Below the pieces are notes generated by a model. That model saw only the letters and a program-made list of their open reading frames with translations, did no database searches and was not told where the DNA came from. The position numbers and the translations under genes are program-made. Positions 43,969 to 55,277 of a DNA stretch of 55,277 nt are shown one piece after another. The stretch's first letter is position 1. The number at the start of each line of letters is the position of its first letter. Location: contig DBNM01000122.1 of the NCBI GenBank assembly GCA_002299135.1, forward strand, positions 1 through 55,277. The letters run 5' to 3'. Source of the stretch: Candidatus Neomicrothrix sp. UBA672. GTDB lineage: Bacteria > Actinomycetota > Acidimicrobiia > Acidimicrobiales > MedAcidi-G1.

Positions 43969-45195
43969 GTGTTTTCAGTTGATATGCGTTCACGTTTGGA
44001 TAGCGATGCGGAGCAGATCGATTCAGAAGTTTGGATAAATGATCAATTACCATTTCTTTTAGAACAAAACTCTTTTATTGCTTACGAAGGTGCTCAAATT
44101 CTGGGGTGCGGACCATTAGGCATTAGGGTTTCACAAAAATCATTTACTCTTACTCCTATAGAAGGAGTAATCAAACTAGATATGGGTGTATCTAATGCCT
44201 CTGTAGTAGTTGATTTAGATGAGATTTCATTTTCTGATTTGGTGCAAGACATACAGACTCCTCAATCATTAGCTACTTCCAAAGTGATTAACCTACCTTT
44301 GAAGGAGCATTTTAGATTTTTAAAGTGGTGGCCTGTTCTTAGAGCGATAATTGATGGTAGGTCAGTTCATAAACCAGGTGAGATTGACTTCTTGAATCAA
44401 GACGGAAGCCCTCTTGATTTGAACAGATCTTTTACTCAGGAAGATTCGGACGAAGAAATTTCGTGGTTTTTATCGCAAACCGGTTATTTGCATCTCAGAG
44501 GATGGTGGAGTCAAGAGTTAATGATGGAAATTTCTAACGATATGGATAACGCCATAGGAAAATATGAGAGAGGTGACGGTAGATCTTGGTGGGCGAAGAC
44601 GAAGGATGGAAAAGATCACTGTGTCCGTCTTCAGTATTTCCAGAGCGAATCGGAATCCGTGAAAGGACTTCTTACCGATGAGCGACACGAGAGGATTGCT
44701 ACGATACCTGGAGATGGACACACCATTGGGTGGGATGGAAGTAATGATCAGAATGCAATTGAAGCTTTAGTTAAACCAATAGGAGTGGTTGAGGGGATCT
44801 CTGATCTTCCTTGGCATAAAGACTGCAGTCTTGGAAGACATTCCTATGACTGTTCGTCTATGACGGTCGGAGTTTCAGTTACAGGAGCAGATTCTGGAAG
44901 TGGTCAATTATCAGTGGTAGCAGGTTCACACAGGGCTAATTTGCAACCTAATTTTATTCATCCTTATCTTGATCTACCCATGATTGATTTGCCTACCAAA
45001 ACAGGTGATGTGACAGTTCATTTATCATGCACACTACATATGAGTCATCCTCCTGTAGAAAGAGAAAGACGAGTTATGTATACAAGTTTTGTTTTGCCTC
45101 ACAAAGGTAAAAAAATTGGTATGGATCGGATTTCAAAAGTGAGAGAAGAGGCTTATATGAAAGTAAGTCAAGCTCCGGCTCACAAAATGGATTAA
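43969..45195 (+). CDS. PhyH-family Fe(II)/2-oxoglutarate dioxygenase with an N-terminal extension
   Basis: LPWHKD (HxD), VVAGSH, GDVTVH..CTLH and ERRV motifs. Confidence 0.85.
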   Translation: MFSVDMRSRLDSDAEQIDSEVWINDQLPFLLEQNSFIAYEGAQILGCGPLGIRVSQKSFTLTPIEGVIKLDMGVSNASVVVDLDEISFSDLVQDIQTPQSLATSKVINLPLKEHFRFLKWWPVLRAIIDGRSVHKPGEIDFLNQDGSPLDLNRSFTQEDSDEEISWFLSQTGYLHLRGWWSQELMMEISNDMDNAIGKYERGDGRSWWAKTKDGKDHCVRLQYFQSESESVKGLLTDERHERIATIPGDGHTIGWDGSNDQNAIEALVKPIGVVEGISDLPWHKDCSLGRHSYDCSSMTVGVSVTGADSGSGQLSVVAGSHRANLQPNFIHPYLDLPMIDLPTKTGDVTVHLSCTLHMSHPPVERERRVMYTSFVLPHKGKKIGMDRISKVREEAYMKVSQAPAHKMD

Positions 45196-46586
45196 TCTCC
45201 CCGTAATAGATGGGCAATAAGCATTGCGCTTTTGCTGGTTTTGTTTGTCCGTGTTTCCGAAACATCTGCTGAACCCATGAGACGACGACTGGTGCGAACT
45301 CCCAACCAACGTAAAGGTTCAGGCTCCCAGCGTCTCGACTTTACACCTACCCAAGGCAGTGTAACTCTTTCAGTGTCATGCCTTAGGATCAACTCTGCCA
45401 TCGTTCTACCCGCTAAATTCGCTGCTGCGACTCCTTCTCCTACGTACCCGCCAAGCACTCCTAGTCCGGAAGAAGGATCAAAACGTAGTCCTGGAAGCCA
45501 GTTTCTTGGAATTGCGATCACTCCACCCCAACGGTGGGTGATTTTGAAATCACGAAGAGGTGGGAGTAGGTCGATTAATGTTTGATGGATTAATTCGTGG
45601 GATTTTTTGTTTACTTCTGCAGTTTTTCTGATTTCTGAGCCAAAGAGATAGGGTGGCATACCCTGACCACCAAAAGCGATGCGATTATCTTCAGTGCGTT
45701 GACCGTAGATAACTATGTATCTTCCATCAGCAAATGTAGGCCTATTCTTTAGTCCTATTTCTTCGAAGACTTTTTCATCAAGAGGTTCTGTAGCAATCAT
45801 TCTTGAGTAAACAGGTAATAAATCAAGTTTGTGTCCTTTTAGGTTGCGGGTGTATGCCTCAGTTGCTTGAACTATTACTTCTGATTTCACTAATCCATGA
45901 TCTGTTGTTACTTCATTTTTAGAGATATTAATTGCTTTAGTTGATTCGACGATTTGCCCACCTAATTTTTCAACTGCTATTGCTAACCCTCTTACCAAAC
46001 GAGCAGGATCAATTGTTGCTGAAGGTGCGAAGAAAATCCCAGAGAGAACTTTTGTGGCGTTTAAATAAGTGAGTGCTTCATCGCGTTCAAGAAAGCGTAT
46101 TACATCTTCACCAAACCCATTTTCACGGGCAGATTTAATTTCATCACGTTGCCTTTGAGCTTGAGGTTGATTACGAGCCACGCTTATAACACCGCCCTTT
46201 ATAAAACCACAATTGATGCCCTCTTTATGTGTAATTCTTTCAACTTCATCTACAGCATCGAACATTGCTCTTTCAAGTCGCTTAGCTTCACTTTTTGATG
46301 ATTTTGCAGCGTATTTCTCAGTACCACCTGCTAGAGCACCTTCACACCATCCGCCATTACGGCCTGACGCTCCAAAGCCACAGTACTCACTCTCAATTAC
46401 TAGAACGTTTAAGTTTGGATTGGAGGCCAACAAATAATAAGCAGTCCAAAGACCACTGAACCCACCGCCGACTATCGCAACATCAACTGAAAGGTCTCCA
46501 CTAAGTGGGGACCGCTTAGTGACAGGTGGGTCAAGAGTGTCGAGCCAAAGGGAGTCAGGTTGTTGTGAAGGTAAGGAAGACATCAC
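45192..46586 (-). CDS. FAD-dependent amine oxidoreductase (DAO family, PuuB/OrdL-like)
   Basis: SLWL, DVAIVGGGFSGLWTAY, GFGASGRNGGW, MIATEPL, THRWGG, GYVGEGV and WEPEPLRW motifs. Confidence 0.88.
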   Translation of the reverse strand: MMSSLPSQQPDSLWLDTLDPPVTKRSPLSGDLSVDVAIVGGGFSGLWTAYYLLASNPNLNVLVIESEYCGFGASGRNGGWCEGALAGGTEKYAAKSSKSEAKRLERAMFDAVDEVERITHKEGINCGFIKGGVISVARNQPQAQRQRDEIKSARENGFGEDVIRFLERDEALTYLNATKVLSGIFFAPSATIDPARLVRGLAIAVEKLGGQIVESTKAINISKNEVTTDHGLVKSEVIVQATEAYTRNLKGHKLDLLPVYSRMIATEPLDEKVFEEIGLKNRPTFADGRYIVIYGQRTEDNRIAFGGQGMPPYLFGSEIRKTAEVNKKSHELIHQTLIDLLPPLRDFKITHRWGGVIAIPRNWLPGLRFDPSSGLGVLGGYVGEGVAAANLAGRTMAELILRHDTERVTLPWVGVKSRRWEPEPLRWLGVRTSRRLMGSADVSETRTNKTSKSAMLIAHLLRGD

Positions 46587-46699
46587 TTACATGCAACTCT
46601 AAACCTCTAAAAATAGCAAGTAATTGGAATTTGAAGCCGGCTAGCACCGAGACTTCTAAATAGGTAGCCTGATATTAGGTCAACAGAATAGAAGAACAT

Positions 46700-47929
46700 A
46701 TGATTCCTGCCCTATTACATGCCTTTTCGAAACCAACTTCTGAGAATTTTCATACGCTTGTCCGTTCTGAAGGGGTTCGAGTTTGGGATGACAAAGGTAA
46801 CGAATACATCGATGGGCTTGGTGGACTCTGGTATTGCCAGATAGGTCATGGAAGACCTGAGTTGATTGATGCAATAACTGAGCAATTACAAAAAATGAGT
46901 TCGTATCACACTTTTGCTCCTATGGGGAGCGATGTATCAGATGCAGCAGCTGAAAGAATCCGTTCTGTTTCACCTTTTCCAGATGGTCGTGTTTTTCTCT
47001 GTTGTTCGGGTTCTGAATCAATTGATACTGCAATAAAACTATTGAGAAAAATACCTATATTAAGAAAACAATCAGAACGTCAAATCATCTTGAGGCGTGG
47101 GCGCGGTTATCACGGTGTAAATATTGGCGGAACTACTATGCAGGGAATCTCGGCTAATCGAGAAGGCTGGGGTGAATTGTTTCCAAATGTAATAGAGATT
47201 GATCCAACGAATATTGAATCTGCTGCCTCAATATTTGCAGAATATGGTGAACAAATAGCAGGAGTTGTAACTGAACCACTGCAAGGTGCTGGAGGAGTTT
47301 TCCCACCACCGTCTGGGTATCTCGAAGGTTTGAGAAGGTTATGCAATGATTACGGAGCACTTCTTGTCTTTGATGAAGTAATTACTGGTTTTGGTCGAAC
47401 TGGCAATTGGTTTGCCTCTGATACTTATGGTGTGAAACCCGACATCATAACTTTCGCAAAAGGTGTCACAAGCGGTTACCAGCCTTTAGGTGGAGTATTA
47501 CTCAGTAGGACAGTTTGTGATGTGCTTGAATCTGATCCAGATTTCACATTTATGCACGGTTATACCTATAGCGGACACCCGGCAGCATCGGCAGCTGCTA
47601 TAGCGAATATAAATATCATCGAAGACGAAGGATTAGTTCAGAGGGCAGAAGTCATAGGCGACAGACTTTCTGGAGGACTTAAAGCTTTAGAGAAAGATGG
47701 AATTTTTTCTGAAGTACGAGGTGTGGGAGCTATATGGGCTGCCCAGGTTACTGATGCATCAACTGAGCAGGGTTTAGTCATACGCGACAAGATGACTGAA
47801 ATGGGAGTGATCTGTCGGGCCATAAATGGAGCGTTGGCGTTTTGTCCGCCATTAGTGATAGAAGAAAATGATATTGATTCAATTATTGATACTGCTGCAA
47901 AAGCAGTTGAAGAGGTTACCGCAAAGTGA
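46700..47929 (+). CDS. Class III (omega) aminotransferase, SpuC-like
   Basis: YIDGLGGLW, SGSES, GYHG, EPLQGAGGV, FDEVITGFGRTG, TFAKGVTSGY and HGYTYSGHP motifs. Confidence 0.93.
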   Translation: MIPALLHAFSKPTSENFHTLVRSEGVRVWDDKGNEYIDGLGGLWYCQIGHGRPELIDAITEQLQKMSSYHTFAPMGSDVSDAAAERIRSVSPFPDGRVFLCCSGSESIDTAIKLLRKIPILRKQSERQIILRRGRGYHGVNIGGTTMQGISANREGWGELFPNVIEIDPTNIESAASIFAEYGEQIAGVVTEPLQGAGGVFPPPSGYLEGLRRLCNDYGALLVFDEVITGFGRTGNWFASDTYGVKPDIITFAKGVTSGYQPLGGVLLSRTVCDVLESDPDFTFMHGYTYSGHPAASAAAIANINIIEDEGLVQRAEVIGDRLSGGLKALEKDGIFSEVRGVGAIWAAQVTDASTEQGLVIRDKMTEMGVICRAINGALAFCPPLVIEENDIDSIIDTAAKAVEEVTAK

Positions 47930-49020
47930 AACGTCCACCCATAAGAATTCTTGAGCTTTCTGGAACACCTGAAAGTATCGGTCATGAGCATGGGAAGACT
48001 TTTGCAGACGAGATCCGAGCTTATACAAAAGATAGGATCAACCTAGTTTCTTCAGGTTTGTGGTCGGGTGGATCAATATCGGAAACTGAAGTTATAGAAC
48101 TTGCTGAATCTATGCTGCCAGCCCATCGAAAATTTGATGAAGATTTGCACGCGGAGATGTTGGCTCTTGCTAATGCTGCTGGGATTTCGCCAGCAGAAGC
48201 GGTAATAGTTGGAGGTTTTACGGACTTTGTTGATGCTGTAAGAGCGACAATAGGAGTGGAAATACCTGGAGAACTTCAAGAAGATGATTGCACATCAATG
48301 ATTATTCCTGATTCTCGAGCTGATGGTTCAGGATTTTTAGCTCAAACATGGGACATGCATGACACAGCAACTGATCATGTGTTACTTCTAAAGATTACTC
48401 CTACCGATCAACCCGCCAGTCTGATATTTACTACTGTGGGGTGTCTTGGGCAGCTGGGAATGAATAATGCAGGTGTTGCTGTCGGTATTAATAATCTCAC
48501 CTGTCTAGATGGAAAATGTGGTGTCACTTGGACTTCAGTAGTTAGGGGCATGTTGAAAGCTGAAAGATCAACTGATGCTTTGAATGTGCTTCTTGAAGCT
48601 GATCTTGCAGGCGCTCATAACTATTTGATATTTGACAGTTCTGGTGACGGCTACAACATTGAAGCTATGCCTTCTGTCAGACCTGTTAACACACTTGGTC
48701 CAGATCCATTAGTTCATACGAACCATACGATTCAATCTGAATCCAGCGATGTTCAAGCTGACCGTGATGCTTCTCTTTTAGAAAACTCAGTTCGTCGTTT
48801 AGAAAAGGCTCAAAAAATTTTAGAAGAAGGAATTATTGATTCAGATCGTTTAATGACACTTACGCGAGATCCTGAAGCAATTTGTCAAACTGCTAAAGAA
48901 CCATATTTTATTGAATCTAGTGGTGCAGCAATTATGAGACCAGCTACTCAAGACTTTTGGGCATGTTGGGGTAGACCAGCTGAGAACGAATATCAACGCG
49001 TTGACTGGTTCCATGGATAA
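47926..49020 (+). CDS. C45 family autoproteolytic Ntn acyltransferase/amidohydrolase
   Basis: LSGTPESIGHEHG, EDDCTS (Cys122 nucleophile), AQTWD, GMNNAGVAVGINNL, HNYL and HTNH motifs. Confidence 0.88.
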   Translation: MKRPPIRILELSGTPESIGHEHGKTFADEIRAYTKDRINLVSSGLWSGGSISETEVIELAESMLPAHRKFDEDLHAEMLALANAAGISPAEAVIVGGFTDFVDAVRATIGVEIPGELQEDDCTSMIIPDSRADGSGFLAQTWDMHDTATDHVLLLKITPTDQPASLIFTTVGCLGQLGMNNAGVAVGINNLTCLDGKCGVTWTSVVRGMLKAERSTDALNVLLEADLAGAHNYLIFDSSGDGYNIEAMPSVRPVNTLGPDPLVHTNHTIQSESSDVQADRDASLLENSVRRLEKAQKILEEGIIDSDRLMTLTRDPEAICQTAKEPYFIESSGAAIMRPATQDFWACWGRPAENEYQRVDWFHG

Positions 49021-49678
49021 AGAACCGTTTATTCATTTGGGTGAAACTTCAGGAATCAGATATATGAATCCTCTAGTTGATTGGGTGGTAGGCATGACTC
49101 AATTGGAACTGTCGTCATTTCCTACCTCTGACCCCGAAGACCTTTATAACGAGAGCGAACTAAAAGCATTGATTGAAGATTTTTCGGAAGGATGTTTTGT
49201 CGGTTTTGACCAAGAGAACATAGTCGCTATGGGGCTCGGTATTAGAGTCCACTTTGATCTTGAGAAACCTCTTCACACAGTGCATGACATAGTTCCCGGT
49301 AATGGAACTTCTGGACATCATCAGGACGGAGATTGGTATTACGGCACTTCAATAGCGGTAAGTCAGCAATATCGGAAACGTGGTATTGGAAACGAGCTTT
49401 ACAAGCTAAGAAAAGAAGTTTGCCAGTGTTTTAATCTCCGAGGAATTGTTGCTGGAGGAGTTATGCCTGGATACGTCGACCACAAGAATGATTATTCAGC
49501 GGATGAATATATAGAACTAGTTCGGAAAGGTGAAATTTATGACCCTACTCTTACGTTCCAGAGGGATAACGGGTTTCAACTTGTCTGTGCGTTACCTAAT
49601 TATATAGTTAACCCTGAGATTGATAATAACGCTGCATTAATAGTCTGGCAGAACCCCGACTATGAGGTGGTTAACTGA
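49013..49678 (+). CDS. GNAT N-acetyltransferase, YkwB-like
   Basis: IAVSQQYRKRGIG acyl-CoA loop, GGVMPGY, YDPTLTFQRDNGF and WQNPDY motifs. ATG at 49013 overlaps the C45 gene end. Confidence 0.88.
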   Translation: MDKEPFIHLGETSGIRYMNPLVDWVVGMTQLELSSFPTSDPEDLYNESELKALIEDFSEGCFVGFDQENIVAMGLGIRVHFDLEKPLHTVHDIVPGNGTSGHHQDGDWYYGTSIAVSQQYRKRGIGNELYKLRKEVCQCFNLRGIVAGGVMPGYVDHKNDYSADEYIELVRKGEIYDPTLTFQRDNGFQLVCALPNYIVNPEIDNNAALIVWQNPDYEVVN

Positions 49679-50652
49679 TGACCAATATCAATGAAGGGGA
49701 TCAAGCGTTCAGGAGCGATTCCTTAAAGGGGAAAGAATCGGAAATGCCTTTTGGAGGGGCTCTTTCTTTTCTCCGAAGAAAGTACACAAGAGAAATTGAT
49801 TCAGCTGACATTGTCGTGTCGGGTATACCATTCGATATGGCGACGTCGAATCGTCCAGGAGCTCGCTTCGGACCTAGAGCTCTAAGAGCGGCATCAGTAG
49901 GACTTGCTGAACTAGATGCATACCCATTCGGTTTCGACCCATTTGATTTTGTTGCTGTAGCAGATTATGGAGATTGCTATATCGATTATGGCTATCCACA
50001 GAATGCAACAGATTTAATTGAACGCCATGCTGACCAAATCTTAAACACAGACTCGATGATGGTAAGTATGGGAGGCGATCATTATGTTACTTACCCACTT
50101 TTAAAGGCTCATGCAAAAAAGTTTGGACCCTTGTCTTTAATACATTTTGATGCCCATTGTGATACGTGGCCTGATGATGGAAATCGGCTAGACCATGGAT
50201 CGATGTTCCTTCGGGCTGTGCGTGAAGGAATAGTCGACCCAACAACTTCGGTTCAAATTGGTATTAGAACTCATAATGAGGACACATTTGGTTTCACTGT
50301 TTTGGGGGCTCCGTGGGTCCATAGAGAAGGCATTCCTGCAGTTATTGAAGTGATTAGAGAAATTGTTGGTGATAGATCAGCATATTTGACCTTCGACATT
50401 GATTGTTTAGACCCAGCATTTGCACCCGGGACTGGAACTCCTGTCGCTGGTGGTCTTAGCTCTGCTCAAGCCCTTGAAACGATACGTTCACTTGGAGAAT
50501 TCGAAATTGTGGGAATGGATCTTGTTGAAGTAGCTCCGCAATATGATGTTGGCGAAATCACGGCTATCGCTGGTGCCACGATTCTTCATGATTTCATTTG
50601 TTTACAGGCAGTTAAAGCTGGAGCTATTCCTTTACCTTTTGGAAGAGTTTAG
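49678..50652 (+). CDS. speB: Agmatinase (ureohydrolase)
   Basis: RPGARFGP, GGDH, HFDAHCD, DHGS, TFDIDCLDPAFAPGTG and DLVEVAP motifs. Confidence 0.88.
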   Translation: MTNINEGDQAFRSDSLKGKESEMPFGGALSFLRRKYTREIDSADIVVSGIPFDMATSNRPGARFGPRALRAASVGLAELDAYPFGFDPFDFVAVADYGDCYIDYGYPQNATDLIERHADQILNTDSMMVSMGGDHYVTYPLLKAHAKKFGPLSLIHFDAHCDTWPDDGNRLDHGSMFLRAVREGIVDPTTSVQIGIRTHNEDTFGFTVLGAPWVHREGIPAVIEVIREIVGDRSAYLTFDIDCLDPAFAPGTGTPVAGGLSSAQALETIRSLGEFEIVGMDLVEVAPQYDVGEITAIAGATILHDFICLQAVKAGAIPLPFGRV

Positions 50653-50692
50653 AATATGGAATCCGATTTCTACTTTAGAGAGATAAAACAAG

Positions 50693-51754
50693 ATGACTTC
50701 TGCAGTTGAGTTAAGTGGAATAACGAAACGGTTTGGTGATGTAGTTGCTGTTGACAATGTTGATTTGTCAATTGCAGATGGAGAGTTTTTCGCGATGTTG
50801 GGACCCAGCGGGTGTGGTAAAACAACAACTTTAAGACTGATCGCCGGTTTGGAATTTCCTACTGAAGGAAGTCTTTCAATTTTTGGTCAAGAAGTAGGGA
50901 CATTAACGCCTGATAAAAGACCAGTTAATACTGTGTTCCAAAATTATGCGCTATTTCCCCATCTAACCGTTTTAGAAAATGTTGGATTCGGTTTGAAAAT
51001 GCAAGGGGTTGACAAAGAAACAACGCGTAGTAGATCTATGGAAATGATTGAGCTGGTTCAACTCGATGGTTTAGCTAAAAGAAAACCTTCACAGATGTCA
51101 GGTGGACAGCAACAGCGAGTTGCGCTTGCTAGAGCTTTAGTCAATCAACCAAAAGTATTGCTTTTAGATGAGCCCTTAGGTGCACTTGATTTGAAGCTTC
51201 GACAAGAGATGCAACTTGAATTGAAGAAACTTCAGAGAGATGTTGGAATCAGTTTTGTTTTCGTGACACATGACCAAGAAGAAGCGCTCACAATGGCAGA
51301 CCGTATTGCGGTTATGGATGATGGTAAGTTGCTTCAAGTTGCTACACCTGAAGAAATATATGAACGTCCGGCAAACCGTTTTGTGGCTGATTTTATAGGT
51401 CAGACAAATTTGCTTGAAGGTACTGTTTCAGATGCAGAAACTGTGATTCTTGAAAACGGTATTTCTGTCAGAGCCAAAAATGGATTTACTGCAGGGACTC
51501 ATGTTGCGGTTAGTCTTCGACCTGAGCGTGCTCATATTCAATCTCAAGGTGAATTTGAAGAAGGTTGGTCACACGTAAATGGTTCTGTTGAAACAGTGAC
51601 CTATTTGGGCAACGCACTTATCTATGGCATAAAACTCGATTGGATGGATCTTGAGGTTCGTGAAGAAAACCACCCTGGGGTTGAGCTACACAGGCCAGGT
51701 GCAGAAATTACTGTCAGCTGGGACCCTGAAGCAATCTCTGTGGTTTCTGACTGA
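50693..51754 (+). CDS. potA: Polyamine ABC transporter ATPase
   Basis: GPSGCGKT, RPVNTVFQNYALFPH, MSGGQQQR, LLDEPLGALD and a TOBE tail. Confidence 0.93.
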   Translation: MTSAVELSGITKRFGDVVAVDNVDLSIADGEFFAMLGPSGCGKTTTLRLIAGLEFPTEGSLSIFGQEVGTLTPDKRPVNTVFQNYALFPHLTVLENVGFGLKMQGVDKETTRSRSMEMIELVQLDGLAKRKPSQMSGGQQQRVALARALVNQPKVLLLDEPLGALDLKLRQEMQLELKKLQRDVGISFVFVTHDQEEALTMADRIAVMDDGKLLQVATPEEIYERPANRFVADFIGQTNLLEGTVSDAETVILENGISVRAKNGFTAGTHVAVSLRPERAHIQSQGEFEEGWSHVNGSVETVTYLGNALIYGIKLDWMDLEVREENHPGVELHRPGAEITVSWDPEAISVVSD

Positions 51755-52656
51755 TGAAGACTGTAGTTAAAACAGATACTGAAACTGCGACTGCAACACC
51801 AGAATTTGAAAAGGCAGCACTTCGCCAAGAATCAAGACGTGGTCTCTTTCTCGCCCTGCCGGCTTATTTGTATTTGATTTTCTTTTTCGTAATTTCACTT
51901 TTCATCGTTTTTATTTACAGTTTTGCGACTCGAAACCGTTTTGGTGGCACTGATTTATCCGGATGGAATCTTGATAGCTATGCAAGAATTAGTGAACCCA
52001 TAGTTAGAGATGTCCTTTTTCGGTCCGTATGGCTTGCTTTTATTACCACAGTTATTTGTTTGGTTATCGCTTATCCTTTTGCTTACTTTCTTTCAACGCG
52101 TCGAGTTGCTGTAAGGAACGTCATGTTGGTATTTGTGATGATTCCGTTTTGGACAAATTTTCTAGTTCGTAATTTTGCATGGAGAGTCATACTAGGGAAT
52201 GACGGGCCACTAACTAATGCAACTGAATTTGTGGGTTTAGGTTCTGCAGAACTTTTGTTCACACAAACCGCAGTGGTATTGGGTCTTGTCTATGGCTATT
52301 TGCCTTTTATGATTCTTCCTCTGTACGCGGCTATAGAGAGAATAGATCGACGTTTATTAGAAGCAAGTAGGGATCTTTACGGGACAGGATTGCAATCTTT
52401 TCGACATGTGCTTTTCCCTCTGTCAATGCCGGGTGTAATAGCTGGATCAATCCTAGTTTTTGTGCCAAGTCTAGGAGCTTATGTGACACCAGAAATTTTA
52501 GGTGGAGCTAAAACCACATTACTTGGAAGCTATATCGTCACTCAGTTTCTCACCGCTAGAAATTGGCCTTTTGGTGCGGCGCTTTCTTTCGTTCTTATGT
52601 TAGTGATGTTAGTAACCACAATTGTTTACTTCCGAAAAGGTGGCAGGACGTTATGA
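51754..52656 (+). CDS. potB: Polyamine ABC transporter permease
   Basis: IPFWTNFLVR, YLPFMILPLY, EASRDL and NWPFGAA motifs. Confidence 0.92.
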   Translation: MKTVVKTDTETATATPEFEKAALRQESRRGLFLALPAYLYLIFFFVISLFIVFIYSFATRNRFGGTDLSGWNLDSYARISEPIVRDVLFRSVWLAFITTVICLVIAYPFAYFLSTRRVAVRNVMLVFVMIPFWTNFLVRNFAWRVILGNDGPLTNATEFVGLGSAELLFTQTAVVLGLVYGYLPFMILPLYAAIERIDRRLLEASRDLYGTGLQSFRHVLFPLSMPGVIAGSILVFVPSLGAYVTPEILGGAKTTLLGSYIVTQFLTARNWPFGAALSFVLMLVMLVTTIVYFRKGGRTL

Positions 52657-53483
52657 GCACCTCCGTGGAACCACGTGGTTGGGCTAAAGCAGCTTTACAT
52701 GTAAACGGTTGGTTCGTTTATATGTTTTTCTATGCACCCATAGTTTTACTAGTTATCTATTCATTTAGTAATAGTAGAAATGTAGGTACATGGGGAGGTT
52801 TCACACTCGATTGGTATCGTGATTTTTTTGATAGCTCGAATGCCCGTGGAGCATTATCAAATTCAGTGAAAATAGCGATTTTCTCTACCATCATTTCTGT
52901 CGCACTTGGAACTATGGCAGCGTTATCGCTCGAACGTTTTACATTCCGAGGAAAGAAAGTTTTTGATGCTCTTCTTTATTTGCCGATAATCATCCCTGAC
53001 GTAACTATGGCAGTAATGATGCTGCTGTTCTTTGGTGAATTTTTTGACGTCCTTGACGCTCTGTTTGGTCTTGGGCTACGAAAAGGTTTCTGGTCAATTT
53101 CAATAAGCCATATTGCCTTCAATATAAGTTTCGTATCAGTTGTAGTTCGGGCTCGTCTCGCTGGTATGGATACGGACTTGGAAGAGGCAGCAATCGACTT
53201 GTATGCCTCTAGATGGAAAGCTTTTCGTTATGTCACATTCCCACAGATAGTTCCTGGAATTGCGGGAGGTGCACTCTTAGCTATGACCTTGTCCCTTGAC
53301 GATGTTGTAATTACTCAGTTTGTTGCGGGTCCGGGTTGGACGACATTACCTGTCTATGTCTTTGGACTGATACGCAAGGGTGTAACTCCTCTAATTAATG
53401 CAGTTTCAGTGACGATGCTTGTGGTCTCAATGCTTTTGGTCGTGCTATCGATCGTCGCTCAACGAGTAAGAAGAAGTGGTTAA
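52653..53483 (+). CDS. potC: Polyamine ABC transporter permease
   Basis: YSFSNS, GFTLDWY, EEAAIDL, LSLDDVV and TLPVYV motifs. ATG at 52653 overlaps the potB stop. Confidence 0.92.
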   Translation: MSTSVEPRGWAKAALHVNGWFVYMFFYAPIVLLVIYSFSNSRNVGTWGGFTLDWYRDFFDSSNARGALSNSVKIAIFSTIISVALGTMAALSLERFTFRGKKVFDALLYLPIIIPDVTMAVMMLLFFGEFFDVLDALFGLGLRKGFWSISISHIAFNISFVSVVVRARLAGMDTDLEEAAIDLYASRWKAFRYVTFPQIVPGIAGGALLAMTLSLDDVVITQFVAGPGWTTLPVYVFGLIRKGVTPLINAVSVTMLVVSMLLVVLSIVAQRVRRSG

Positions 53484-53537
53484 GCGCTATTATCGCTTTT
53501 AAGTAGGTCTAGTTGGCCTCAGAGGGGAAAGAAAGAT

Positions 53538-54644
53538 ATGAGAAATTTGAAACGTTTTAGGTATTTAGCTGTTCTACTTACCTTAGCTTTAGCAGTTTCT
53601 TCGTGTGGAAGCGACAGTGATGAAGCCGCTGCAGCAGATTGCGAATTGAATCAAGTAGATGGCGATTTGGCTTTGTATAACTGGGCTGAATACATCGATG
53701 AAGAACAACTAGCTGAGTTCGCAACAGAATATGGTATCAGCGCAACCATGGATGTTTATGATTCTAATGAAGCGATGCAACCAATCATTTCTGCAGGTAA
53801 TTCTGGTTATGACGTTATTGTGCCGTCTGACTACATGGTTTCTATTCTTATCGCAGATAAAAAGGTCCAGAAACTGAATTCTGACGCTATTCCGAATGCT
53901 AAAAACATCTCAGCTGATTTTAGTGGTTTGTATTATGACCCTTCTGGCGAATACACAGTTCCATATCAGTGGGGTACTACCGGTATAGGAGTTAATACGA
54001 CAGTTGTTGGAAAAGATTTCCCACGTTCTTGGGGATTGATTTTTGATCCGAGCATTTCGGGCGCTTTCGATGGGAAGATCCAGTTGTTAAATGACCCACG
54101 TGAGACGATGGGAGCGGCGCTTAAGTATCTTGGTTATTCACTAAACACGACAGATAAGGGTGAATTGGACAAGGCAAAGGATTTGGTCGCGTCAACCGCT
54201 GACAGGCTGGCCGCTTTTAATACAGATTCTGCAGATGAATTCCTAACCAGTGGAGAAACTGTAATTGGACACGGATATTCAGGTGACATGTTCGTTCAAT
54301 TCCTGGAGACCGATAATCCTGAGGATTACGTTTATTTTGTTCCTGAGGAAGGTGGAACAAGGTGGATAGACAATATGGGAATTCCTTTTGATGCCCCACA
54401 CCCATGCACCGCACATACCTTCATTAACTGGCTACTTGGTGCAGACCAAGGAGCTGCTCTTTCCAATTGGAACTACTATGGAACCCCTAATGATGCTGCT
54501 GTAGCAGGGCTTGATGAAGATCTACTTGATTTCGTCAATGATCCTGAATTGTTAGCAGGTGGTGTTGATTCACTTGAAGAGATTGAGGATACAGGTGATT
54601 TTGAAATCAATTATGCTGACGCTTTCGTAGAAGCTAAAGGCTGA
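53538..54644 (+). CDS. potD: Polyamine ABC transporter substrate-binding lipoprotein
   Basis: Lipobox AVSSC; YNWAEY, YDSNE, YDVIVPSDY, VPYQWGTTG, YSGD and WIDN motifs. Confidence 0.92.
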   Translation: MRNLKRFRYLAVLLTLALAVSSCGSDSDEAAAADCELNQVDGDLALYNWAEYIDEEQLAEFATEYGISATMDVYDSNEAMQPIISAGNSGYDVIVPSDYMVSILIADKKVQKLNSDAIPNAKNISADFSGLYYDPSGEYTVPYQWGTTGIGVNTTVVGKDFPRSWGLIFDPSISGAFDGKIQLLNDPRETMGAALKYLGYSLNTTDKGELDKAKDLVASTADRLAAFNTDSADEFLTSGETVIGHGYSGDMFVQFLETDNPEDYVYFVPEEGGTRWIDNMGIPFDAPHPCTAHTFINWLLGADQGAALSNWNYYGTPNDAAVAGLDEDLLDFVNDPELLAGGVDSLEEIEDTGDFEINYADAFVEAKG

Positions 54645-54653
54645 TTCGAGTAT

Positions 54654-54696
54654 TTAAAAAAAGTGGGACCTCTTTATTGGGGTCCCACTTTTTTAA
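54654..54696. terminator. Bidirectional intrinsic terminator
   Basis: AAAAAAGTGGGACC...GGTCCCACTTTTTT hairpin with an A tract on the left and a T tract on the right, between convergent genes. Confidence 0.9.
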
Positions 54697-54722
54697 TTTA
54701 TATTGCAGATATTAGAAAAGCT

Positions 54723-55277
54723 TTATTTCAATACCTCAGCCATTGTGTCGATAACTTGACCTATTTCGTTGTCACTAATAGTTAGTGGAGGGCAAATTGC
54801 GAGTCCAGTGTTTAGGGGTCTTAAAATAACTCCCTTGGAGCGGATTTCATTTCTGATTTGCGTAGGGTCCTGTTCAATCTCGACTGCGTATACAGCACCA
54901 GTTCCACGCCAAGAGTCAATGAGGCTATCTGATCGTAATGATTCCAAACCGTTTCGGATCTGCTCTCCAACATGGTTAGCTCGCTCAACCAAAGTTTCAC
55001 GTTCCATCAATTCCAAATTCGCAATACCAGCTGCACAAGACGTTGGATGACCAGAATATGTATAGCCAGTCCTGAGAACGAAATCAGGTTCTTCAAGGGT
55101 GTCACAAACATTTCTAGAAATAATTACACCGGATAGAGGTAGATACCCAGAGGTAACACCTTTCGCAAAAGTCATTAAATCAGGAGTTACTCCAAAATGT
55201 TGAGCTCCAAACCATTTCCCTGTCCGACCAAACCCGCAAATAACTTCATCAAAAATAAGCAAAGCACCGTTATCATC
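54723..55277 (-). CDS. Class III aminotransferase, 3' part (5' end beyond the window)
   Basis: IFDEVICGFGRTG, TFAKGVTSGY, GYTYSGHP and ICPPL motifs; paralogue of 46700-47929. Confidence 0.9.
   Translation of the reverse strand, partial: DDNGALLIFDEVICGFGRTGKWFGAQHFGVTPDLMTFAKGVTSGYLPLSGVIISRNVCDTLEEPDFVLRTGYTYSGHPTSCAAGIANLELMERETLVERANHVGEQIRNGLESLRSDSLIDSWRGTGAVYAVEIEQDPTQIRNEIRSKGVILRPLNTGLAICPPLTISDNEIGQVIDTMAEVLK

What the first reader, a model, noticed from the sequence alone, without database searches (positions are those of the whole stretch)
45192..55277. Candidate acyl-protected polyamine catabolic pathway: GNAT + C45 hydrolase where PuuA/PuuD would be expected
Seen: aminotransferase III, C45 Ntn-hydrolase, YkwB-like GNAT and agmatinase are joined by overlapping stop/start codons (47926-47929, 49013-49020, 49678) and run into potABCD. 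A PuuB-like FAD oxidase is divergent, and a second aminotransferase III converges on the shared terminator. No glutamine-synthetase-like PuuA or PuuD hydrolase is in the window. Known: Puu/Pau pathways block one amine by gamma-glutamylation so the amino-aldehyde cannot cyclise, oxidise the other end, then deprotect. C45 enzymes (penicillin acyltransferase, Drosophila Tan) transfer or hydrolyse N-acyl amides. Inference: agmatine -> putrescine (SpeB) -> N-acyl-putrescine (GNAT) -> N-acyl-aminobutanal (oxidase or aminotransferase) -> N-acyl-GABA -> GABA (C45). This would be an add/remove protecting-group pair built from two poorly characterised families.
Basis: partly seen in the sequence, partly recalled or inferred. 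Interest (0 to 1): 0.8.

Follow-up and report, generated by a model that had tools for sequence, protein, structure and literature searches.

The report
Acyl-on/acyl-off pair in polyamine catabolism

Summary
The genes and overlaps are as described. The C45–GNAT pair is real: adjacent in 47 of 48 GNAT-bearing genomes among 251 Acidimicrobiia, fused in three, mostly beside polyamine genes, and lost with the oxidase-to-potD block in close kin. The 'instead of PuuA/PuuD' premise is weak. A PuuD-like gene lies 3.9 kb past the window edge, though it persists where the block is lost. A GlnA2-type ligase is on another contig. There is no anti-correlation: 35 of 48 carriers have extra GS-like genes, against 120 of 203 non-carriers. 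New support: the same GNAT family pairs with other amidase families, including in three Deinococcus gabT–gabD operons, and fuses to an amine oxidase and to aminotransferases. Caution: its nearest folds are CurA-type decarboxylases, and some relatives fuse to PEP carboxylase. Best reading (0.42): an acylate–oxidise–deacylate route; no activity has been assayed. The scan noted this twice before on other genomes.

The parts
45192..46586 (-). DAO-family FAD oxidoreductase, PuuB-like; divergent from the operon; part of the block that is gained or lost together
   Evidence: PF01266 E 2e-59; 28% to E. coli PuuB, E 1e-28; not found in G004, G008, G009
46700..47929 (+). Class III aminotransferase of the omega-amine/polyamine:pyruvate type
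   Evidence: PF00202; best PDB relatives include amine and polyamine:pyruvate transaminases, E about 1e-76 to 1e-78
47926..49020 (+). Peptidase C45 Ntn-hydrolase; predicted nucleophile Cys122, Asn266
   Evidence: NF040521 above cut-off; model pLDDT 93.6, TM 0.85 to isopenicillin N acyltransferase 2x1c/2x1d; C122 and N266 invariant in 56 rows and aligned to the IAT residues
49013..49678 (+). GNAT-fold protein of the family found in GNAT/nitrilase fusions; start at ATG 49013
   Evidence: PF00583; plasmid relatives; model pLDDT 95.2, nearest folds CurA/SxtA/GphF (TMq 0.72-0.77), then serotonin N-acetyltransferase 0.62
49678..50652 (+). Agmatinase SpeB
   Evidence: NF002564 446 bits against cut-off 302; nearest PDB entries are agmatinases
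50693..51754 (+). PotA ATPase
   Evidence: TIGR01187 387.6 against cut-off 355.6
51754..52656 (+). PotB-like permease
   Evidence: best NCBIfam hit PotB, below its cut-off
52653..53483 (+). PotC-like permease
   Evidence: best NCBIfam hit PotC, below its cut-off
53538..54644 (+). PotD/PotF-like solute-binding protein
   Evidence: best NCBIfam hits PotD and PotF, below cut-off
54657..54694 (.). Bidirectional terminator-like hairpin
   Evidence: 16-pair stem flanked by A and T runs
54723..55277 (-). 3' part of a second class III aminotransferase (51% to the first); lies outside the mobile block, since it stays in kin that lack the block

Best explanation
The block encodes a polyamine-type ABC importer, an agmatinase, an aminotransferase, a flavin oxidase and a tightly coupled GNAT–C45 pair, and it most likely breaks down a diamine by having the GNAT cap one amino group with an acyl group from acyl-CoA and the C45 enzyme remove that cap after the other end has been oxidised. 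Predicted route: agmatine to putrescine (SpeB; from family assignment), to N-acyl-putrescine (GNAT; inferred), to N-acyl-4-aminobutanal (aminotransferase or oxidase; inferred), to N-acyl-GABA (an unlinked aldehyde dehydrogenase; inferred), to GABA (C45; inferred). Shown: gene content, coupling, fusion, joint loss, families and folds. Not shown: any activity, the acyl group, the amine, or whether acylation comes before or after the first oxidation.
For: Pair: among 251 Acidimicrobiia genomes, 48 have the GNAT, all 48 also have the C45, and 47 have them adjacent. In the best 80 of 156 GTDB C45 loci the GNAT is adjacent in 66 and within the locus in 68. One reading frame in G051, G348 and L060 and in proteins P0229 and P0253. 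Context: 62 of 80 loci have a pot, speB, oxidase or aminotransferase III neighbour, 48 have pot genes, 12 a GabT-like gene (two such genes score at the TIGR00700 cut-off). Of 61 relatives, 26 of 28 with the potD orthologue carry the pair; outside the own family the same 3 of 24 genomes have both. G004 and G009 lack the whole oxidase-to-potD block, with the flanking genes joined. Amidase is exchangeable: three Deinococcus plasmids have two GabT-type aminotransferases, this GNAT family, an amidohydrolase (Amidohydro_3 in the one scanned) and gabD in a row; a second GNAT copy precedes an Amidohydro_3 gene in G292 and G522. Of 41 mostly longer family members scanned, 15 carry a nitrilase-type hydrolase, 3 a C45, 1 an Amidohydro_3, 2 an aminotransferase III and 1 a flavin amine oxidase. 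13 of 48 carriers, including single-contig G348 and G218, have no GS-like gene beyond the GlnA1/GlnA2 pair. The CoA-binding motif R121-x-x-G124-x-G126 is invariant in 56 rows.
Against: No anti-correlation with GS-like genes: 35 of 48 carriers against 120 of 203 non-carriers have an extra one, by a rough count from match numbers and E-values. A PuuD-like C26 gene is 4.5 kb from potD here and within 14 of 80 loci. A GlnA2-type protein is in the genome, and S. coelicolor GlnA2 is reported to glutamylate polyamines (PMC8998196). 6 of 54 C45 genomes had no GNAT hit; in the 4 opened, C45 still sits by speB, aminotransferase or pot genes. The GNAT's nearest folds are decarboxylases, it has Gln183 where acetyltransferases often have a Tyr (recalled), and 3 of 41 relatives are fused to PEP carboxylase. 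8 of 80 loci have a PutA/pseudouridine glycosidase context without pot genes, though pot and oxidase genes lie 20-35 kb away on the same contig in several such genomes. The two nitrilase-length fusions opened (Salinivibrio, Rhodobacteraceae) show no polyamine context. No dehydrogenase is in the block.
Confidence: 0.42

Rival explanations
1. An ordinary gamma-glutamylation pathway split over the genome: a distant GlnA2-type or other GS-like ligase caps the amine, the PuuB-like oxidase acts, and the nearby C26 protein or the C45 protein removes glutamate; the GNAT is accessory.
For: PuuD-like gene 3.9 kb past the window, 30% to E. coli PuuD; GlnA2-type gene on C158; in S. coelicolor the oxidase, dehydrogenase and gabT genes (SCO5655-5679) are served by distant GlnA2/GlnA3 (PMC9397018 section 24); IAT removes an alpha-aminoadipyl side chain, one CH2 longer than gamma-glutamyl (recalled); all 6 C45-only genomes have an extra GS-like gene.
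Against: C26 is independent of the block: kept in G004, G008, G009 that lack it, not found in 13 of 31 pair-bearing relatives and in 11 of 28 with potD. A GS-like gene is in only 1 of 80 loci. It leaves the GNAT fusions to C45, amine oxidase and aminotransferases unexplained.
Confidence: 0.2
2. Salvage and buffering rather than protection: the importer takes up N-acylated polyamines, C45 frees the amine first for plain transamination, and the GNAT re-acylates excess amine.
For: C45 occurs beside speB, aminotransferase or pot genes without the GNAT in 4 of 4 such genomes opened; P. aeruginosa grows on acetylputrescine through deacetylases (PMC4784309 passages).
Against: One-polypeptide fusion of two opposing activities on the same substrate would make a futile cycle (inference); in Deinococcus the pair sits between gabT genes and gabD.
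Confidence: 0.15
3. The GNAT-fold protein is not an amine acyltransferase but an acyl-CoA sensor, regulator or CurA-like acyl-CoA decarboxylase attached to various catabolic enzymes.
For: Top five Foldseek matches are CurA, SxtA and GphF GNAT-like decarboxylases; fusions to PEP carboxylase (3 of 41) and a HAD hydrolase.
Against: The positions of the CurA catalytic His and Thr (residue roles recalled) are Gln183 and Gly149 here; across 144 wider relatives position 183 is Gln in 93%, and none of the 8 His-bearing rows has Thr at 149. Most fusion partners make or cleave amides and amines.
Confidence: 0.12
4. Same pair, other order: oxidation comes first and the GNAT traps the ring-opened amino-aldehyde (1-pyrroline and the like) as its N-acyl form, as DapD/DapH do in lysine synthesis.
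For: Fusions to a flavin amine oxidase and to aminotransferases; GNAT directly behind the oxidase in G218, G573 and G670; adjacency to PutA, which makes a cyclic imine, in 8 of 80 loci.
Against: PuuB-type oxidases are known to act on an N-acyl (gamma-glutamyl) diamine (annotation); the PutA link looks like a rearrangement within one lineage.
Confidence: 0.1

Closest known systems
E. coli Puu / P. aeruginosa Pau / S. coelicolor GlnA2-GlnA3 gamma-glutamylation pathway
   Same: Polyamine import, PuuB-like oxidase (28%), class III aminotransferases, cap-oxidise-uncap logic (PMC9397018 passages and section 24).
   Different: No GS-like ligase in the block (1 of 80 loci); a GNAT and a C45 Ntn-hydrolase sit there instead; no linked PuuC.
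Bacterial polyamine acetylation (SpeG, PaiA, C. glutamicum) and acetylpolyamine amidohydrolases (P. aeruginosa PA0321, PA1409)
   Same: GNAT acylation and amidase deacylation of polyamines.
   Different: Those are unlinked detoxification or salvage steps; PMC9397018 says the fate of acetylspermidine in E. coli is not known. Here the amidase is C45 and the GNAT is only distantly like SpeG or PaiA (TMq 0.53 and 0.48).
Animal acetylputrescine route to GABA; arginine succinyltransferase (AST) pathway (both recalled)
   Same: Acyl-CoA-derived cap, oxidation of the free end, deacylation.
   Different: Other enzyme families and, for AST, another substrate; not compared by a call.
Isopenicillin N acyltransferase and insect Tan (peptidase C45)
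   Same: Fold (TM 0.85), Cys nucleophile and Asn aligned.
   Different: 19-20% identity; Asp rather than Gly before the Cys (IAT Gly102-Cys103, Tan Gly121-Cys122 per PMC10194958); coupled to a GNAT in a catabolic block.
CurA/SxtA/GphF GNAT-like decarboxylases
   Same: Nearest solved folds and a shared C-terminal motif.
   Different: Catalytic His/Thr positions not kept; no polyketide synthase context.
Bifunctional GNAT/carbon-nitrogen hydrolase proteins
   Same: Same GNAT module, 31-36% identity, paired with an amidase.
   Different: Partner is a nitrilase-fold amidase; no polyamine context in the two opened; no functional paper found in my searches.

Membership tests
Puu/Pau gamma-glutamylation pathway | GS-like gamma-glutamyl-polyamine ligase in the locus | tested here: not met
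   None in the window or the rest of contig C92; only a GlnA2-type gene on C158 (NF045547 314 bits against 650); 1 of 80 related loci
Puu/Pau gamma-glutamylation pathway | PuuD-type C26 hydrolase serving the locus | tested here: inconclusive
   Present 4.5 kb past potD, 30% to PuuD, but kept where the block is lost and not found in 13 of 31 pair carriers
Puu/Pau gamma-glutamylation pathway | PuuB-like FAD oxidase | tested here: met
   PF01266; 28% over 392 aa to PuuB, best hit in the genome
Puu/Pau gamma-glutamylation pathway | Linked PuuC-type aldehyde dehydrogenase | tested here: not met
   Only unlinked dehydrogenases, none above a PuuC or aminobutyraldehyde dehydrogenase cut-off
Peptidase C45 | Profile score, Ntn fold, Cys nucleophile and Asn | tested here: met
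   NF040521 179 against 85; TM 0.85 to IAT; C122 and N266 invariant
Peptidase C45 | Self-cleavage before the Cys and amidase or transferase activity | not testable with these tools
   Asp121 precedes Cys122, unlike Gly in IAT and Tan
GNAT N-acyltransferases | GNAT fold with R/Q-x-x-G-x-G/A CoA-binding loop | tested here: met
GNAT N-acyltransferases | Acyl transfer from acyl-CoA to an amine | not testable with these tools
   no assay; no characterised close relative
GNAT-like decarboxylases (CurA/GphF/SxtA) | Fold with the extended C-terminal motif | tested here: met
   TMq 0.72-0.77
GNAT-like decarboxylases (CurA/GphF/SxtA) | Catalytic His and Thr | tested here: not met
   Gln183 and Gly149 at the aligned positions; which CurA residues are catalytic is recalled, the paper was not held
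Agmatinase SpeB | Curated profile cut-off; nearest structures | tested here: met
   NF002564 446 against 302; agmatinases rank above guanidinobutyrase
PotABCD polyamine ABC transporter | Four genes whose best hits are Pot profiles | tested here: inconclusive
   PotA above cut-off; PotB, PotC, PotD best hits but below cut-offs, so the ligand is not fixed

The most novel reading that the evidence does not exclude
This GNAT family plus an exchangeable amidase (C45, Amidohydro_3 or nitrilase) is a third, cross-phylum route for diamine catabolism, and in the C45 version the Ntn enzyme works as a transacylase that hands the cap from N-acyl-GABA to fresh putrescine, so that the GNAT only primes the cycle (the ArgA/ArgJ logic run catabolically). 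That would give ATP-free amine protection in ocean oligotrophs, and a function for the orphan GNAT module of GNAT-nitrilase fusions.
Probability: 0.15. Interest if true: 0.82.

Novelty: new variant of a known kind. Interest (0 to 1): 0.56.

Why it matters
Cap-oxidise-uncap catabolism of polyamines in bacteria is described for the gamma-glutamyl cap; the review I read says the fate of acetylspermidine in E. coli is unknown. A dedicated acyl-CoA-based version would fill that gap, give a substrate class to a bacterial C45 subfamily and to the GNAT module of common GNAT-nitrilase fusions, and show how marine Acidimicrobiia may use dissolved polyamines. It is directly testable with two small soluble proteins and with cultured Deinococcus carriers.

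Tried and rejected
Anti-correlation with PuuA/PuuD: tested and not found; the GS count is rough, since it cannot tell PuuA/GlnA3 types from other GS-like enzymes, and kin are not independent. A GS tree of 30 rows finished only in quick mode; E. coli PuuA sits on a long branch in an open fork, so no clade could be named PuuA. Complex prediction for C45 with the GNAT was not available, so binding is untested. Expression: four RNA runs kept as contigs cover potD (three runs) and short pieces of the aminotransferase, C45, GNAT and speB; the run that covers all bins also covers intergenic DNA and may hold DNA, so neither transcription nor a single transcript is shown. Promoter scan gave fewer sites than shuffles (10 against 20). 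ESM Atlas returned only generic GNAT clusters. PDB sequence search for the GNAT gave nothing below E 0.001. Distant C45 proteins on plasmids (79 records, 23-30% among the 40 listed) were not followed up except one Desulfocapsa locus without GNAT or pot genes. Literature searches listed no paper on this pair; the library lacks most subscription papers. Three paper look-ups were not held. PutA as a functional partner: considered unlikely, as pot and oxidase genes lie on the same contigs further off.
Full report
Source and observation. The window is G000:C92:1-55277 of a 1.57 Mb genome that is 68.5% complete. Its closest named relatives are marine Acidimicrobiales MAGs. The hairpin at 54657-54694 is a plausible two-way terminator.

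What lies beyond the edge. The contig goes on to 61936. It carries the rest of the second aminotransferase, an MFS transporter and a Peptidase_C26 gene at 59161-59874, 30% identical to E. coli PuuD over 201 residues. The one PF00120 match in the genome lies on C158, between a glutamine synthetase II-like gene and a GlnR-like regulator (those two labels are my reading of the sequences). It passes the type I GS cut-off and not the PuuA cut-off. I call it GlnA2-type from its position and recalled likeness. S. coelicolor GlnA2 is reported as a gamma-glutamylpolyamine synthetase (PMC8998196; abstract start and passages seen). In S. coelicolor the oxidase, dehydrogenase and gabT genes are far from glnA2 and glnA3 by locus number (PMC9397018; passages and section 24 seen). 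So the lack of PuuA/PuuD in the window is not diagnostic.

Is the C26 gene part of the system? Probably not. G004 (94% complete), G008 (84%) and G009 (92%) of the same genus had no hit for C45, GNAT, oxidase or potD but keep C26. In G004 and G009 the second aminotransferase directly abuts the phyH-like gene, so the 9.5 kb block from oxidase to potD is cleanly absent. Among 61 genomes, 13 of 31 pair carriers had no C26 hit and 19 of 37 C26 genomes lack the pair. Still, C26 lies within 14 of 80 loci.

Conservation of the pair. Of 61 relatives 32 have the C45, 33 the GNAT and 31 both. In 251 genomes of the class, 54 have the C45, 48 the GNAT, all 48 both, 47 adjacent. In 401 genomes of the phylum, the 5 with a close C45 (E below 1e-100) all have the GNAT beside it; 40 genomes with only distant C45 hits have none. 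In the best 80 of 156 GTDB loci the GNAT is adjacent in 66, elsewhere in the locus in 2 and not found in 12, of which 2 end within 800 bases of the C45. Two adjacent cases are from records titled Myxococcota and Deltaproteobacteria. C45 and GNAT share one frame in G051, G348 and L060 and in P0229 and P0253. These genomes are kin, so the counts are not independent events.

Context. Of the 80 loci, 48 have pot genes, 34 speB, 43 a close oxidase, 12 a GabT-like gene and 9 a methylmalonate-semialdehyde dehydrogenase; 62 have at least one amine-catabolic neighbour. Gene order varies widely while the pair stays together. Eight loci have a PutA/CoA-transferase context with no pot gene; in G016, G020, G028, G029 and G035 the oxidase and pot genes are 20-35 kb away on the same contig. 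GabT neighbours point to GABA and the semialdehyde dehydrogenase to beta-alanine, so the amine may differ between lineages. In this genome I found no close GabT; a dihydropyrimidinase, a methylmalonate-semialdehyde dehydrogenase and a neighbouring aminotransferase lie on C170, and three other aldehyde dehydrogenases are unlinked.

Anti-correlation test. Counting PF00120 matches at E up to 1e-40 beyond a GlnA1/GlnA2 baseline, 35 of 48 carriers and 120 of 203 non-carriers have an extra GS-like gene. There is no exclusion. But 13 carriers have none, among them the single-contig genomes G348 and G218, so in those a PuuA or GlnA3 is not available unless GlnA2 does the job.

The two enzymes. The C45 model matches isopenicillin N acyltransferase (TM 0.85) with Cys122 and Asn266 invariant. 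IAT and Tan cleave at Gly-Cys (PMC10194958; passages seen); here it is Asp-Cys. The GNAT keeps the CoA loop. Its nearest folds are the CurA, SxtA and GphF domains, described as decarboxylases (PMC10127204 and PMC11685415; passages seen), but their recalled catalytic His and Thr align to Gln183 and Gly149. The family has 1,247 representatives at E up to 0.001. I scanned 41 proteins (35 representatives over 300 aa among the 150 listed, 4 shorter ones, 2): 15 nitrilase-type hydrolase, 3 C45, 3 PEP carboxylase, 2 aminotransferase III, and one each of amine oxidase, Amidohydro_3 and HAD. Of 20 plasmid hits I opened 6. Three Deinococcus plasmids have an APC permease, two GabT-type aminotransferases, the GNAT, an amidohydrolase and gabD. 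Priestia has it beside a nitrilase-type hydrolase. Two longer proteins, one annotated as a GNAT/carbon-nitrogen hydrolase fusion, show no polyamine context. G292 and G522 carry both GNAT-C45 and GNAT-Amidohydro_3 pairs. The constant is therefore this GNAT next to an amidase of any fold, often within amine-to-GABA catabolism.

Mechanism. The simplest reading is an acyl cap put on by the GNAT and removed by the amidase, with oxidation between (0.42, plus 0.10 for the variant in which oxidation comes first). Gamma-glutamylation from afar (0.20), salvage of acylated polyamines as in P. aeruginosa (PMC4784309; passages seen; 0.15) and a non-transferase GNAT (0.12) remain open. Against the best reading, C45 also occurs beside polyamine genes without the GNAT in 4 of 4 such genomes opened, and the PEP carboxylase fusions are unexplained.

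Novelty. The logic is known from Puu/Pau and, from recall, from the animal acetylputrescine route and the AST pathway. Eight literature searches listed no paper on this pair (listings only; no supplements read). The scan noted the same idea on two other genomes; I had written my reading before seeing them, and they are not independent support. Verdict: real and conserved, a new variant of a known kind, chemistry untested; interest 0.56.

Noticed in passing
P0343, P0373, P0389: The same GNAT family is fused N-terminally to PEP carboxylase in 3 of 41 proteins scanned; it may be an acyl-CoA-sensing module there. Unexplained.
   Followed up: no
L148, L149, L151 (Deinococcus plasmids): PucR/APC-linked operon with two GabT-type aminotransferases, GNAT, Amidohydro_3 and gabD; in L148 the second aminotransferase is split over two frames; in L151 the GNAT is annotated 'nitrilase'.
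   Followed up: partly
G000:C92 end (L001:7315-7937) and G000:C170:1-8000 (L186): A nitrilase-like gene, aminotransferase, dihydropyrimidinase, methylmalonate-semialdehyde dehydrogenase and ABC transporter look like a reductive pyrimidine/beta-alanine pathway; it lies just beyond the C26 gene in kin (L129, L131).
   Followed up: partly
window:13679-22771: Alanine dehydrogenase, an MttB-family methyltransferase, two DAO-GcvT fusion dehydrogenases and a Rieske oxygenase: a methylated-amine catabolic cluster.
   Followed up: partly
window:27204-35364: Pseudouridine glycosidase, nucleoside phosphorylases, phosphomutase, DeoC and an aldehyde dehydrogenase followed by a truncated second one: nucleoside salvage.
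   Followed up: partly
window:22798-27211: 2-oxoacid dehydrogenase E1 alpha, E1 beta and E2 with an NAD-kinase-like gene between them (acetoin dehydrogenase-like layout, recalled).
   Followed up: no
L044:9208-9981 and L049:3022-3795: In two GNAT-less loci a 257-aa ORF that looks like a nitrilase-family protein (by eye) lies directly before the C45.
   Followed up: no
L147:3460-9722 (Desulfocapsa plasmid): A distant C45 sits in an operon with a C26 hydrolase, a glutathione synthase-like ligase and a radical SAM protein.
   Followed up: no
L115/L116 (G011, G017): About 8 kb from the C45-GNAT pair lie an ectoine hydrolase DoeA-like gene, an M20 peptidase, a TPP enzyme, an iron alcohol dehydrogenase and a GS-like gene.
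   Followed up: partly
window:43969-45195: 408-aa PhyH-family dioxygenase with a long N-terminal extension, overlapping the oxidase stop; stays when the block is lost.
   Followed up: no
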